Assembly: GCA_964016885.1 (NCBI GenBank)
Contig: CAXHJY010000119.1
Span: 1 to 64,000, forward strand
Source: Eledone cirrhosa
Taxonomy: Eukaryota
Direction: 5' to 3'
Length of the DNA: 64,000 nt
A program made the translations under genes and the position numbers. Below, piece by piece: positions 4,645-56,590 of the stretch. Within the stretch, counting starts at the first letter, position 1. Each line of letters begins with the position of its first letter. The notes under the pieces are model-generated. The model saw nothing but the letters and a program-made list of their open reading frames with translations. It searched no databases and was not told where the DNA came from.

Positions 4645-4972
4645 AATTTATTCAGAATATTAATAAATGAAGACATTCACATAATCAAAATATATGTTTT
4701 ATTATATATATTTCGAAGGTACTGTGCGGTTTTTTCAGTACGTCCTCGTCAGATAAAATACATGAATTGATGTATGGCATACCTCAACGGTCTTGATGGT
4801 TCAATTCCAGTATTGAACCATCAAGACCGTTGAGGTATGCCATACATCAATTCATGTATTTTATCTGACGAGGACGTACTGAAAAAACCGCACAGTACCT
4901 TCGAAATATATATAATAAAACATATATTTTGATTATGTGAATGTCTTCATTTATTAATATTCTGAATAAATT
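4645..4972. repeat. Perfect palindrome, 161-bp arms with a 6-bp spacer (tccagt, 4806-4811), PLE pseudo-LTR-like
   Basis: 4645-4805 is the reverse complement of 4812-4972; both sides are TA repeats. Confidence 0.95.
4859..4920 (+). ncRNA. Type I hammerhead ribozyme (mirror copy on the - strand at 4697-4758)
   Basis: ttttat-CTGACGA(4865)-gga c gtactg/cagtac c ttc-GAAA(4903)-tatata-TA-ataaaa; 6-bp stem I and palindromic stem III loop. Confidence 0.8.
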
Positions 4973-7900
4973 ATATATATACATATATATATACATATAT
5001 AAATATATACAAATATATATATACTCACATATATATATACATATATACATATATATATATATATATATATATATATATATATATATGTATATATATATAT
5101 ATATATATATATGTATGTATATATATATATATATATGTATGTATATATATATGTATATATATATATATATATGTATGTATATATATATGTATATATATAT
5201 ATATATATATGTATGTATATATATATGTATATATGTATGTATATATATATGTATATATGTATATATATATATATGTATATATGTATATATATATATATGT
5301 ATGTATATATATATATGTATATATATATATATGTATGTATATATATGTATATATATATATATGTATGTATATATGTATATATATATATGTATATATATAT
5401 ATGTGTATATATATATGTATATATATATATATATGTGTATATATATATGTATATATATGTATATATATATGTATATATATATGTATATATATATGTATAT
5501 ATATATGTATATATATATATATGTATATATATATGTATATATATATATATATATATGTATATATATATGTATATATATATATATATATATGTATATATAT
5601 ATGTATATATATATATATATATATGTATATATATATGTATATATATATATATATATATGTATATATATATAAGTATATATATATATATATATGTATATAT
5701 ATATATATGTATATATATATATGTATATATATATATGTATATATATATATATATATGTATATATATATATATATATATGTATATATATATATATGTATAT
5801 ATATATATATGTATATATATATATGTATATATATATATATGTATATATATATATATGTGTATATATATATATATGTGTATATATATATATGTGTATATAT
5901 ATATATGTGTATATATATATATGTGTATATATATATATGTGTATATATATATGTGTGTATATATATATATGTGTATATATATATATATGTGTATATATAT
6001 ATATGTGTATATATATATATGTATATATATATATATGTATATATATATATATATATGTATATGTATATATGTATATATATATATGTATATGTATATATAT
6101 ATATATATATATATATATGTATATATATATATGTATATATATATATGTATATATATATATGTGTATATATATATATGTGTATATATATATATGTGTATAT
6201 ATATATATGTGTATATATATATATGTATATATATATATATGTGTATATATATATATGTATATATATATATATGTGTATATATATGTATATATATATATAT
6301 GTGTATATATATATATGTATATATATATATATGTATATATATATATATGTATATATATATATATGTATATATATATATATGTATATATATATATATGTAT
6401 ATATATATATATATATGTATATATATATATATATATATGTATATATATATATATATGTATATATGTATATATATATGTATATATATATATATATATATGT
6501 ATATATATATGTATATATATATATATATGTATATATATATGTATATATATATATATATATATATTATATATATATATATATGTATATATATATGTATATA
6601 TATATGTATATATATATGATATATAATATATATATATATATATAATATATATATATGTGTATATATATATATATATATATATATATATATATATGTGTAT
6701 ATATATATATATATATATATATATGTATATATATATATATATATATATATATATATATATATATGTGTAAATATATATATATATATATATATATATATAT
6801 ATATATATATATATGTGTAATATATATATATATATATATATATGTGTATATATATATATATATATATATATATATATATATATATATATATATATATTAT
6901 ATATATATACACATATATATATATATATATATATATATGTATATATATATATATATATATATATATATATATATGTGTATATATATATATATATATATAT
7001 ATATAATATATATGTGTATATATATATATATATATATATGTTTATATGTATATATATATATATATATATATATATATTATATATATATATATGTATATAT
7101 ATGTAATATATATATATATGTATATATATATGTATATATATATGTATATATATATGTATATATATATGTATATATATATATGTATATATATATATAAATG
7201 TATATATATATGTATATATATATATATGTATATATATATATATATGTATATATATATGTATATATATATATATGTATATATATATATATATATATATATA
7301 TATGTATATATATATATATATATATATGTATATATATATATATATGTATATATATATATATTATATATATATATATATGTATATATATATATATATATGT
7401 ATATATATATATATATATATATATGTATATATATATGTATATATATATATATATGTATATATATATATATATATATGTATATATATATATATATATATGT
7501 ATATATATATATATATATGTATATATATATATATGTATATATATATATATATATATATATATGTATATATATATATATATATATGTATATATATATATGT
7601 ATATATATATATATATATATGTATATGTATATGTATATATGTATATATGTATATGTATATGTATATATATATATATATATATATATGTATATGTATATAT
7701 ATATATATATGTAATATATATATATATATATATGTATATATATATATGTATATATATATATGTATATGTATATATATATATACATATATATATATGTATA
7801 CATATATATGTATATATATATATATATATATATATATATATATGTATACATATATATGTATATATATATATATATATTATATATATATATATATATATAT

Positions 7901-9863
7901 ATATATGTATATATATATATATAATATATATATATATATGTATATATATATATATATATATATATGTATATATGTATATATATATATATATATGTATATA
8001 TATATATATATATATATATATATATATATATATATATATATATGTATATATATATATGTATATATATATATATATATATGTATATATATATATATATGTA
8101 TATATATATGTATATATATATATATGTATATATATATATATGTATATATATATGTATATATATATATATGTATATATATATATATGTATATATATATATG
8201 TATATATATATATATGTATATATATATATATGTATATATATATATATGTATATATATATATATGTATATATATATATGTATATATATATATATGTATATA
8301 TGTATATATATATATATGTATATATATATATATGTATATATATATATATGTATATATATATATGTATATATATGTATATAATATATAATATATATATATA
8401 TTATATATATATGTATATATATATATAATATATATATATATATATAATATAATATATATATATATATATATATTATATATAATTAATATATATATAGTAT
8501 ATATGTATATATATATATAATATATATATATATATAGTATATATATGTATATATATATATATATATGTATATATATGTATATATATATAATATATATATA
8601 TATATATGTATATATATATATAATATATTTAGGTATATATATATATATATATATATATATATATATATATATATATGTATATATATATATATATATATAT
8701 ATATATATATGTATATATGTATATAATATATAATATATATATATATATATATTATATAGTATATATATATATATATATATATAAATGTATATATGTATAC
8801 TATATATATATATATATATATATATATATATATATATGTATATATATATATATGTATATATGTATATAATATATATATATATATATATATATATATATAT
8901 ATATATGTATATATATATATATATATATATATGTATATATATATATAAATATATATATATATATATATATATATATATAATATGTATATATATATATATA
9001 TATATATGTATATATATATATGTATATATATATATATATGTATATATATATATATATATATATATATATATATATATATATATATGTATATATATATATA
9101 TATATATATATATATATATATATATATATATATATATATATATATGTATGTATATATATATATATATATATATATATATATATATATATATTATATATAT
9201 ATATATATATATATATATATGTATATATATATATATATATATATATGTATGTATATATATATATATATATATATATATATATATATATATATGTATATAT
9301 ATATATATATATATATATATATATATATATATATATGTATATATATATATATATATATATATATATATATATATGTATATATATATATATATATATATAT
9401 ATATATATATATGTATATATATATATATATATATATATATATATATATATATATATATGTATATATATATATATGTATATATATATATATATATATATGT
9501 ATATATATATATATATATATATATATATATATATATATGTATATATATATATATATATATATATATATATATATATATATATATATATATATATATATAT
9601 ATATGTATATATGTATATATATATATATATATATATATATATATATATATATGTATATATGTATATATATATATATATATATATATATATATATATATAT
9701 ATGTATATATATATATATATATATATATATATGTATATATGTATATAATATATATATATATATATATATATATATATATGTAATATATATATATATATAT
9801 ATATATATATGTATATATATATATATATATATATATATATATATATATATATGTATAATATAT
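4973..9863. repeat. About 4.9 kb (TA)n/(TATG)n microsatellite
   Basis: Direct reading. Confidence 0.97.
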
Positions 9864-10044
9864 GTAGATAAATCTACCAAGAGTTTACGGTAGTGTCCAA
9901 TCCGTATGAAGAACTCAATGTATTCCGGATATCATGGAAAGAAGAGATGTAATGAAAATCCAATTTCGGTGAAAGATAAACGGTATACAGAGTCAAGATA
10001 AAATAAATAATGAACAAACAATTCCTTATATTAAACAAAAAAAG

Positions 10045-55400: not shown

Positions 55401-55660
55401 GATTGATTGATGACGGTCGTGGGGTTGTCACACATGGCCTCACTAGCCACCCCACTACCGTGCACAGCCCTAACATGGTTAGTGTTATTGCTGTTTACGT
55501 ATTTGTTTTTGTGCGATTGCTTGATGAGTGCGGGGGTTCTCGCACATGGCCGCACCAGCCACCCCACTATCATGTGCAGCTCTAAAATGGTTAGTGTTAT
55601 TGCTGTTTACGCAGTTGTTGCAAATTTCATTCATTGCGTTCATAGTGTTTGGCAGTAGTA
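52454..55660 (-). mobile_element. Near-full-length RTE-clade LINE (APE endonuclease, RT, Cys/His finger), frameshifted
   Basis: RVATLNVGTL, QEVR, GVGIL, ISVYAPQ, AGDFNGHVG, QIDFLL; FVDLEKAF, GVHQVSVLSPLLF, LLYADD; CSICRKG..NSI.C; (ATG)n tail near 52454. Confidence 0.93.
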
Positions 55661-56049
55661 TATATACTGGTTGGATGCCCTTCCTAGCCCCAGCACCACT
55701 TTACAGCATGGACTGGGTGCTTTTATTTGTGCCACCAGCACTAGAGAGTTTGTCTTACTAGACTCAGGGGCTCTCTTTACTCCTCCATTTTACAGCATGG
55801 ACTGGGTGCTTTTATTCGTGCCACCAGCACTAGGAAGTTGTCTTACTGGACTTAGGGGACTTCTCTACCCCACACCAATTTATTTGGAGAGGTAGCTCTC
55901 CTAGACGGGTTGCATACACTACAGCTTACGGAGCCTCCATCCACCCCTTTTCTGCCTGATTATATATATATATATATCATCATCATCATCGTTTAACGTC
56001 CATGTTCCACGCTTGCATGGGTTATATATATATATATATATATATCTGT

Positions 56050-56590
56050 ATAAAATATTAAACAAATAATGAATAAACAATTCCTTATATTAAACAAAAA
56101 AAGTTCATTATTTAACGATCGTTTCTAGGGTATATATGTGTTATAATTGGTATGCATATTCAACAGATCTATGTACAAAATTATACAAAATTATACAAAT
56201 TATCAAGATTAAATATACATACCTAACACATATATACGCCGTCTTCAGAAATTATTTCTGAAGACGGCGTATATATGTGTTAGGTATGTATATTTAATCT
56301 TGATAATTTGTATAATTTTGTATAATTTTGTACATAGATCTGTTGAATATGCATACCAATTATAACACATATATACCCTAGAAACGATCGTTAAATAATG
56401 AACTTTTTTTGTTTAATATAAGGAATTGTTTATTCATTATTTGTTTAATATTTTATCTTGACTCTGTATACCGTTTATCTTTCACCGAAAGTGGATTTTC
56501 ATTACATCTCTTCTTTCCATGATATCCGAAATACATTGAGTTCTTCATACGGATTGGACACTACCGTAAACTCTTGGTAGATTTATCTAC
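56050..56590. mobile_element. Short palindromic PLE pseudo-LTR insertion (203-bp arms centred on 56253, plus a 134-bp tail); same family as 9864-16958
   Basis: 56254-56590 matches the reverse complement of about 9864-10193; 56050-56252 is its inverted copy. Confidence 0.9.
56251..56399 (+). ncRNA. Hammerhead ribozyme with long stem II (mirror copy on the - strand at about 56107-56252)
   Basis: attattt-CTGAAGA(56258)...GAAA(56381)-cgatcg-TT-aaataat; stem II contains the perfect 14-bp helix gtatatatgtgtta/taacacatatatac. Confidence 0.65.

What the first reader, a model, noticed from the sequence alone, without database searches (positions are those of the whole stretch)
4645..56590. A microsatellite-hosted ribozyme/PLE ecosystem: about 25 HHR motifs and four independent head-to-head palindromes with the same geometry
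Seen in the sequence: four inverted structures (4645-4972, 9998-16958, 28736-34164, 56050-56456) from three unrelated sequence families. All place the HHR sense strand on - in the left arm and on + in the right arm, joined at their 5' ends, with both 3' ends running into (TA)n. Further HHRs occur at 20341, 21031, 24835, 25430, 26931, 27621 and 35971. Established knowledge: PLEs carry minimal HHRs in their pseudo-LTRs, make tandem and inverted insertions, and some clades favour microsatellites. Inference: one mechanism (priming on both strands of a cut TA tract, then joining the two cDNAs) mobilises both coding PLEs and non-coding HHR RNAs here, and turns TA arrays into nested insertion hotspots.
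Basis: partly seen in the sequence, partly recalled or inferred. Interest (0 to 1): 0.75.

Follow-up and report, generated by a model that had tools for sequence, protein, structure and literature searches.

The report
Twin-primed Penelope insertions in TA repeats
These mirror-image repeats are real insertions of Penelope-like jumping genes and of small non-coding hitch-hikers in TA microsatellites, a known pattern, but their strictly paired ends suggest that both cut DNA strands likely start copying the same RNA at two different fixed points.

Summary
Observation confirmed: 25 hammerhead-like motifs (4 decayed) and four head-to-head palindromes in (TA)n. Correction: two of the three palindrome families (A, B) are 5'-truncated ends of coding Hydra-clade Penelope-like elements (B: 6.6 kb, 813-aa ORF elsewhere in the genome). 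Only C (422 bp) and E (~592 bp) are non-coding retrozymes. On chromosome-scale contigs, head-to-head beats tail-to-tail 70 to 3. Each family has two fixed 3' ends, and 74 of 79 resolved two-armed insertions pair one short with one long end (0 long-long). B arms share a haplotype in 20 of 21 pairs, and in 11 of 19 lopsided B pairs neither arm contains the other. Best reading (0.65): both target strands prime on one RNA at two fixed sites; mini-palindromes run to the likely transcript start, and retrozymes likely use a circle. Head-to-head geometry, the one-sided tail, (TA)n targeting and PLE-derived retrozymes are published. The strict coupling, two-armed retrozyme arrays and a conserved 97-116-nt helix II were not found in print. 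The window is not exceptional for this genome. The scan noted the same reading before, elsewhere in this genome and in other genomes.

The parts
4648..4806 (-). Family A left arm: 5'-truncated pLTR of a Hydra-clade PLE, HHR core at 4752, short (tail-less) 3' end into TA
   Evidence: longer copies lead upstream into a GIY-YIG ORF with a CxCx5C linker
4813..4969 (+). Family A right arm, HHR core at 4865 (31-nt helix II, palindromic helix III, predicted cleavage after 4914), also tail-less: a short+short exception
   Evidence: no differences between the arms over the HHR region
9866..13863 (-). Family B insertion 1, left arm: long (tailed) 3' end at 9866, HHR core 10189, 3.5-kb low-complexity 3' UTR, broken C-terminal piece of the GIY-YIG ORF at about 13540-13863
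13860..16954 (+). Family B insertion 1, right arm: 5'-truncated in the 3' UTR, HHR core 16767 (116-nt helix II, predicted cleavage after 16901), short 3' end
   Evidence: 0 substitutions and 7 small indels between the arms over 3.1 kb
19440..20533 (+). D1: 5'-truncated PLE (RT thumb + GIY-YIG with CX4CxxC linker and CCHH, Neptune/Nematis type), HHR core 20345, short end into TA
20553..24140 (-). D2: related PLE (about 70% identical to D1), frameshifted RT-EN ORF with an N-rich N-terminus, decayed HHR 21068, longer 3' end; tail-to-tail with D1 across a short TA tract
   Evidence: (RVT_1 E 3e-5)
24601..25700 (-). Family E: 1.8 units of a ~592-bp non-coding tandem retrozyme, U3-A8 HHR cores at 24919 and 25514, long 3' end into TA
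   Evidence: (7,458 exact matches, 591-595-bp tandems)
26925..26975 (-). F: decayed minimal HHR upstream of an unrelated non-LTR endonuclease-like fragment
27611..27706 (+). G: HHR-like motif with a long helix II and a decayed helix I
28733..31408 (-). Family C left array: 6.35 units of a 422-bp non-coding retrozyme, six HHRs, short 3' end into TA
31417..34164 (+). Family C right array: 6.5 units, six HHRs (14-nt helix II, U.U at its base), long 3' end (about 56-nt tail) into TA
35965..36020 (-). H: decayed HHR (G12 lost)
56054..56251 (-). Family B insertion 2, left arm: pLTR only, from the likely transcript start (7 nt before the core) to the short end
56251..56590 (+). Family B insertion 2, right arm: pLTR plus 137-nt tail (long end)
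4970..9865 (.). kb-scale (TA)n array between A and B1; similar arrays flank the other insertions (3.8-4.6, 17.0-19.4, 24.2-24.6, 27.9-28.7, 34.2-34.6, 56.6-58.2 kb)
   Evidence: 18.3% of the window in TA runs vs 5.3% in the genome sample

Best explanation
These are genuine insertions of Penelope-like elements and their non-coding retrozyme passengers into (TA)n, likely made when both strands of the cut repeat prime reverse transcription on the same RNA at two different fixed start sites. Shown by the sequence: TA targets; two fixed 3' ends per family (A 175/267, B +198/+335, C +249/+305, E about 165 nt apart); short+long pairing; shared haplotype of the arms; variable 5' junctions. Inferred steps: (1) the GIY-YIG endonuclease, probably as a dimer, nicks both strands of (TA)n; (2) each 3' end anneals by about 3 nt (TAT/ATA) to one start site, one downstream of the other by the length of the tail; (3) both cDNAs run towards the RNA's 5' end and are joined there by end-joining, which gives head-to-head arms, one with and one without the tail; (4) on an uncleaved linear transcript both stop at the transcript start, a TCA initiator-like motif at or just before the hammerhead, giving mini-palindromes such as A and B2; on a circular or read-through RNA they pass the hammerhead and stop at random, giving long arms (B1) or two-armed tandem arrays (C); (5) each insertion leaves TA on both sides, so the array stays a target.
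For: Orientation among the first 100 exact hits per family on C1, neighbours within 15 kb: head-to-head/tail-to-tail A 12/0, B 33/1, C 11/1, E 14/1; each of the three tail-to-tail cases lies between separate or duplicated insertions. End pairing, hand-tallied from the calls: B 37 short+long, 1 short+short, 0 long+long, 2 unresolved of 40; C 13 of 13 resolved, about 10 more unresolved; A 21, 4, 0, with 5 unresolved of 30; E 3 of 3; total 74 of 79, p 4e-17 against 50%. B arms agree at all 23 informative sites in 20 of 21 pairs against 4.5% of between-locus pairs; weaker but significant for A (own partner nearest in 11 of 21) and C (8 of 13). Of 19 lopsided B pairs with a resolved junction, the tail-less arm reaches further 5' in 11 and the tailed arm in 8, so in 11 neither arm contains the other; some A pairs barely overlap (L023). 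Two long B pairs stop at the same internal base in both arms (L145, L155). In 13 of 33 B pairs both arms stop within about 12 nt of the core, at a TCA motif; about 14 A arms stop at the A of TCA. C junctions are scattered. One-armed copies occur with either end. In vitro, a Poseidon PLE cuts and extends both strands, starts at two RNA sites that delimit the tail, uses uncleaved RNA and is predicted to be a dimer (PMC11167929, main text read).
Against: No RNA data: no holder on record as RNA, so transcript start, cleavage and circles are all inferred. Lopsided arms could also arise from fold-back followed by asymmetric deletion of the palindrome centre, and identical arms from fold-back, gene conversion or two RNAs of one donor. 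Five short+short cases, including A in this window, need a second route. In one B pair (L120) and two A pairs (L036, L033) the arms differ strongly, and several C pairs differ by 9-34 bases in 170. The in vitro study saw no homology between cut DNA and start site, whereas here all five readable start sites lie on TAT/ATA. C and E share no detectable DNA similarity with A or B, so their mobiliser is unidentified. No target-site duplication or empty site could be read inside pure TA.
Confidence: 0.65

Rival explanations
1. Fold-back or self-priming: one cDNA is primed at the long site, folds back or self-primes (Arkhipova 2013 proposed an antisense template), and the copy is resolved at the short site by the endonuclease; later deletions of the unstable centre make the arms lopsided.
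For: Explains arm identity, the near-perfect centres of mini-palindromes and the absence of long+long pairs. It is the published reading (PMC3846280, discussion; PMC8557442 ascribes the tail to EN-mediated resolution). The short sites are AT-rich and could be EN substrates.
Against: In 11 of 19 lopsided B pairs the tail-less arm holds sequence that the tailed arm lacks, by up to several kb. In four short B pairs one arm ends exactly at the putative start and only the other is cut back (L161, L163, L049, L072), which centre-spanning deletions would rarely give. One-armed short-end copies are common. Both sites are RT starts in vitro.
Confidence: 0.2
2. Two RNAs, one event: a dimer carries two RNA molecules from the same donor locus, and each strand primes on its own RNA.
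For: Fits orientation, non-nested arms and shared haplotypes if one donor dominates in a cell; explains short+short pairs and the few pairs with unlike arms.
Against: Does not by itself explain the strict short+long pairing (74 of 79), or both arms ending at one internal base (L145, L155).
Confidence: 0.1
3. Independent insertions into the same TA tract, or sequencing/assembly fold-back chimeras.
For: The window is on a 69-kb unplaced contig with near-identical arms; TA tracts do attract repeated insertions (D1/D2).
Against: No TA lies at the inverted junctions. The arms end at element-defined, unequal positions with unrelated flanks on chromosome-scale contigs. Orientation is 70 to 3. Raw Illumina reads of two other samples carry a strand-switch joint at -8/-7 of B (4 reads from 3 starts, and 1 read): weak but independent.
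Confidence: 0.05

Closest known systems
Hydra clade of EN+ Penelope-like elements, incl. Hydra-1_Obim (Craig et al. 2021, PMC8557442; section 11, passages and supplement rows seen)
   Same: Family B ORF has RWR, DKT, a CxCx5C linker, no CCHH, CxxC and CxH near the C-terminus; HHR in the pLTR; (TA)n insertions; inverted 5'-truncated copy; one-sided tail. Family A ORF fragments show the same linker.
   Different: B is 6.6 kb (Hydra described as generally under 3 kb) because of a 3.5-kb low-complexity 3' UTR; tails are 92 and 137 nt, not 30-40; the HHR has a 97-116-nt helix II with C.A at its base.
Inverted-pLTR insertions of Adineta vaga Penelopes, e.g. Pen2a_Av (Arkhipova et al. 2013, PMC3846280; passages and discussion read)
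   Same: Head-to-head is 'most frequently observed', the tail is on one inverted pLTR, there are palindromes at the junction and an Inr-like TCACT in the pLTR.
   Different: That paper reads the structure as self-priming on an antisense template from few copies; here the end pairing and non-nested arms favour two primings. No TSD is readable in TA.
Poseidon PAc of Anolis in vitro (Frangieh et al. 2024, PMC11167929; main text read)
   Same: Both strands are cut and extended; two internal RT starts bound the tail, downstream of the HHR; uncleaved RNA is the template; predicted dimer.
   Different: Coupling of the two starts within one event, and inverted products, were not examined; no primer-template homology was seen there; different clade.
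Metazoan non-LTR retrozymes (Cervera and de la Pena 2020, PMC7229834, passages; Li et al. 2026, 10.64898/2026.07.22.740005, parts 1-3 of 5 read)
   Same: C and E are non-coding tandem units of 422 and ~592 bp with one type I HHR each; rolling-circle copying and PLE dependence are proposed there; U.U at the base of helix II as in axolotl HHR_Amex2.
   Different: Those papers describe direct tandems ('inverted' and 'microsatellite' occur 0 times in PMC7229834); here the arrays are two-armed, head-to-head, TA-targeted, and carry the PLE short/long end rule. No sequence link to a pLTR was found for C or E.
Minimal PLE hammerheads (Cervera and de la Pena 2014, PMC4209133; parts 1-2 of 4 and passages read)
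   Same: Palindromic helix III (dimer-type), unpaired base before helix II, U3-A8 core variant, pairs of HHRs 100-700 bp apart on opposite strands.
   Different: Helix II there is 6-8 bp; B and its sister families carry a rod of about 100 nt and lack G10.1-C11.1.
LINE-1 twin priming (recalled, no paper read)
   Same: The second target strand primes on the same RNA and yields a 5' inversion.
   Different: In L1 the second priming site is variable and the two pieces do not overlap; here it is fixed, 56-165 nt from the first, so the arms overlap as a palindrome.

Membership tests
Hydra-clade PLE (families A, B) | Single ORF with RT and C-terminal GIY-YIG EN | tested here: met
   B: 813-aa ORF with YRDD and a VY..YIG motif in L104-L107; Pfam gave no significant hit. 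A: RT and EN fragments only, no intact copy seen.
Hydra-clade PLE (families A, B) | RWK and DKT motifs, no GxKF/Y | tested here: met
   B: RWR at 37 (R for K), DKT at 115, no GxKF/Y (definitions). Not readable for A.
Hydra-clade PLE (families A, B) | CxCX5C linker, CCHH absent, C-terminal CxxC and CxH | tested here: met
   B: CNCRNKTNC, CRLC, CNH; the A fragments show the same pattern.
Hydra-clade PLE (families A, B) | pLTR with HHR, partial tandems, inverted 5' copy, one-sided tail, (TA)n target | tested here: met
Hydra-clade PLE (families A, B) | Placement in the RT phylogeny with named Hydra elements | not tested
   No reference Hydra proteins were in hand; the assignment rests on motifs.
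Neptune/Nematis-type PLE (D1, D2) | CX2-5CxxC linker plus CCHH in the EN | tested here: met
   Read across frames; which of the two clades was not decided.
Non-LTR retrozyme (C, E) | Tandem non-coding unit of a few hundred bp, one type I HHR per unit, dispersed loci | tested here: met
   no unit-linked ORF in the 24 C loci scanned.
Non-LTR retrozyme (C, E) | Transcribed as circular and multimeric RNA | not testable with these tools
   No RNA run was available. The C monomer folds far below shuffles as a circle (z -9.6), partly because of self-complementary RY repeats.
Type I hammerhead ribozyme | Conserved core with helices I-III | tested here: met
   18 of 25 by scanner. B-type: 90% of cells paired, 8 pairs with two-sided changes, above shuffled and slid controls; core 3-8 pair C-G in 14 and U-A in 4 of 18. 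These are related sequences, so few independent events.
Type I hammerhead ribozyme | G10.1-C11.1 pair | tested here: not met
   Met in A and D1; B-type has C.A (18 of 18) and C has U.U. U.U is published; C.A was not found in print.
Type I hammerhead ribozyme | Self-cleavage at the NUH site | not testable with these tools
   Needs an in vitro assay; 8 of 9 Xenopus retrozyme dimers did not cleave in Li et al. 2026.

The most novel reading that the evidence does not exclude
A Penelope-type RT-endonuclease dimer performs obligatory, coupled double-ended integration: one RNA, two fixed start sites, one per target strand. The RNA's form decides the product: a capped, uncleaved transcript gives promoter-only mini-palindromes that begin at the hammerhead, and a hammerhead-made circle gives full elements and two-armed retrozyme arrays. 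Non-coding circles with no sequence similarity to the host element hijack this through structure alone, and Hydra leaders carry an undescribed hammerhead variant whose ~100-nt helix II and C.A base may make cleavage protein-dependent.
Probability: 0.35. Interest if true: 0.72.

Novelty: new variant of a known kind. Interest (0 to 1): 0.45.

Why it matters
How Penelope-like elements build their inverted ends and tail is stated as unsolved in the papers read (PMC8557442, PMC3846280, PMC11167929). The short+long rule, shared arm haplotypes and non-nested arms turn that question into a simple assay (two marked RNAs, a TA target, single-molecule sequencing). The same footprint on C and E is direct genomic support for the proposal that PLE enzymes mobilise animal retrozymes, so far argued from co-occurrence and pLTR similarity. 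With about 100 motifs per Mb, this process shapes much of a 3-Gb genome and seeds it with palindromes. The elements themselves are ordinary members of known classes.

Tried and rejected
Rfam scan of the window: the 150 listed of 558 matches were miRNA-family matches to TA repeats below gathering score; no hammerhead family was among those listed (408 not shown). First scanner: too strict at the base of helix II, found only family A. An apparent third 3' end of B at +426: a BLAST extension artefact; these are long ends. Haplotig or empty-site comparison: the unique stretch 37440-38540 has no second copy in the assembly. TSDs: not readable in pure TA. Run search: no RNA holder listed. Reads laid on the B2 palindrome: no listed joint bridged the centre unambiguously; inconclusive. 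Mobiliser of C or E: no significant similarity to A, B or D ends; the one E-D2 hit is low-complexity. Cap-derived G at 5' ends: G precedes the first A in 6 of about 14 A arms, but in several it is templated by the other arm; not claimed. Lead from e1-8668527 (same small hairpin after both ends): B has TTG(A)CTC-like words after both ends and A has TAACTC after its short end, but C has neither; not confirmed. In the 400-kb sample, neighbouring HHRs were 5 head-to-head and 4 tail-to-tail; read by eye, the tail-to-tail pairs join different families or variants, so the orientation rule holds within insertions only. Protein atlas look-up of the 26115-26615 ORF did not complete. Two arm measures were misregistered and are not used. 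Paper searches found no report of the short+long coupling as a counted rule, of two-armed retrozyme arrays, or of a ~100-nt helix II. Subscription papers and bioRxiv supplements were not searchable, and of Craig's supplements only the metadata file was held.

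
Full report
Observation. The window is contig C146 (69 kb) of a 3.0-Gb assembly, 30% alternating purine-pyrimidine repeat. A type I hammerhead scanner that allows a long helix II finds 18 motifs against 0.1 in shuffles: two in palindrome A (4648-4969), four in the two B structures (9866-16954, 56054-56590) and twelve in the 422-bp arrays of C (28733-34164). 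D1 and the two E copies are published variants (extra base before helix II; U3-A8 core; PMC4209133); D2, F, G and H are decayed. All four inverted structures are head-to-head with 3' ends in (TA)n.

What the families are. Exact 23-26-nt core words occur 762 (A), 3,019 (B), 2,826 (C) and 7,458 (E) times, with 0 for the reversed controls. B is not a small RNA: four tandem B loci 6.5-7.1 kb long hold an ORF of up to 813 aa with the Hydra-clade marks listed by Craig et al. (RWR, DKT, CxCx5C, no CCHH), followed by a 3.5-kb low-complexity 3' UTR and the pLTR. The window's B1 is a 5'-truncated two-armed copy whose left arm reaches the end of the endonuclease; B2 is pLTR only. Longer A copies also lead into Hydra-type RT and endonuclease fragments. 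D1 and D2 are PLEs of the CCHH type. C and E are non-coding tandems, that is retrozymes. The host looks like a cephalopod; this is my inference from recalled repeat types and earlier notes, and no call names it.

Orientation. Among the first 100 listed hits per family on C1, neighbours within 15 kb on opposite strands were head-to-head in 70 cases and tail-to-tail in 3. The three exceptions lie between separate or duplicated insertions. This is a sample of 400 of about 14,000 hits, from one chromosome.

End rule. Every family has two fixed 3' ends, 92 (A), 137 (B), about 56 (C) and about 165 nt (E) apart. I examined all 33 head-to-head B pairs of the sample, the two in the window, and five apparent solos that proved two-armed: 37 short+long, 1 short+short, 2 unresolved. 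C gave 13 of 13 resolved (two are a duplicated block; about 10 were unresolved), A 21 short+long, 4 short+short and 5 unresolved of 30 (two duplicates dropped), E 3 of 3. In total 74 of 79, none long+long. The A loci were partly chosen as best BLAST hits and the C loci by hand from the listing. Window A is one of the short+short exceptions. 98 of 106 outer ends begin TA-rich, and the five readable start sites lie on TAT or ATA.

One RNA, two primings. In B the two arms agree at all 23 informative sites in 20 of 21 pairs, against 4.5% between loci; A and C show the same trend with more exceptions. Identity alone fits fold-back too. But in 11 of 19 lopsided B pairs the tail-less arm reaches further 5', often by kb, while the other arm has the tail, so neither is a copy of the other; in 8 the tailed arm is longer. 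Two long pairs stop at the same internal base in both arms, as if both enzymes reached the end of one broken RNA. Fold-back with later asymmetric deletion of the centre remains possible, which is why I keep 0.2 for it.

5' ends. In 13 of 33 B pairs both arms stop within about 12 nt of the core, mostly at -5 to -7, where the element reads TCA with the A at -7; sister families do the same. About 14 A arms stop at the A of a TCA. Arkhipova et al. noted an Inr-like TCACT in pLTRs. I infer that this is the transcript start, so that mini-palindromes are copies of the uncleaved leader of a normal PLE transcript and need no separate RNA. Full-length B copies start 216-442 nt upstream of that point, and C junctions are scattered, as expected from circular or read-through templates. 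No RNA data could test this.

The ribozyme. B's hammerhead has a 116-nt rod-like helix II (z -5.6). A further 4,598 exact pattern matches belong to sister families. In 18 aligned copies helix II is 97-116 nt, helix I and II carry two-sided changes, the 3-8 core pair switches from C-G to U-A in one family, and C.A replaces G10.1-C11.1 in all. This points to selection on an active fold, though the copies are related and cleavage is untested.

Artefact and hotspot. The same structures lie on chromosome-scale contigs with unrelated flanks. Raw reads of two other samples show a strand-switch joint at -8/-7 of B (5 reads in all); a second read test was inconclusive. Forty evenly spaced 10-kb stretches hold 44 motifs (about 6 doubtful; 0-1 in shuffles) and 5.3% TA repeat; the same scanner finds 16 in the window, which has 18.3%. 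The window is therefore a TA-rich piece of a genome that is full of these elements, not a special locus.

Comparison with print. Head-to-head inverted pLTRs with a one-sided tail (PMC3846280, PMC8557442), (TA)n targeting by Hydra elements, including an octopus family, opposite-strand HHR pairs (PMC4209133) and the PLE origin of retrozymes (10.64898/2026.07.22.740005) are all published. Cutting and extension of both strands from two RNA sites is shown in vitro (PMC11167929). In seven searches I found no counted short+long rule, no two-armed retrozyme arrays and no ~100-nt helix II. Earlier notes of this scan reach the same two-start reading on other pieces of this genome and in other genomes. 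I had formed my reading before seeing them (note), and they are not independent evidence.

Verdict. New variant of a known kind; interest 0.45.

Noticed in passing
window 34566-35690: Tc1/mariner-type transposon with terminal inverted repeats and a transposase fragment (HTH_Tnp_Tc3_2, E 2e-4), inserted in the TA array directly right of C.
   Followed up: partly
window 25979-26615 (-): Frameshifted ORF pieces resembling the restriction-like endonuclease end of a CRE/NeSL-type non-LTR element (resemblance recalled; no Pfam hit), just downstream of decayed hammerhead F.
   Followed up: no
window 23700-24140 (-): The D2 ORF begins with an Asn/Thr/Ile-rich stretch coded by AAY-type repeats, like the N-rich inserts described for A. 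vaga Penelopes (PMC3846280).
   Followed up: no
window 484-1170, 2579-3724, 48500-55300, 58150-60320: APE-type LINE fragments (RVT_1 and Exo_endo_phos_2 hits), several abutting TA arrays; the CR1/L2 and RTE labels are recalled.
   Followed up: no
window 17000-19420: The interruptions in the TA array switch polarity near 17.9 kb (ATGTAT on + before, ATACAT after), suggesting two tracts grown in opposite orientation between B1 and D1.
   Followed up: no
L166, L169, L174, L180, L183, L196 (genome sample): At least three tandem retrozyme families, including C and one of ~310 bp, share a 14-nt helix II with a TAACAA-type loop, while coding Hydra families have long helices II.
   Followed up: partly
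L023, L030, L035: Further small palindromes of other families sit in neighbouring TA tracts within a few hundred bases of family A insertions.
   Followed up: no
G000:C1 about 19.620-19.625 Mb (L092-L095): A block holding a two-armed E and a two-armed C insertion is duplicated in tandem; it explains two of the three tail-to-tail neighbours.
   Followed up: partly
L108; L033 and L034: A second Hydra-like ORF lies within the 9 kb between two B pLTRs in L108; an L1/Tx1-like element (label recalled) is nested in long A copies.
   Followed up: no
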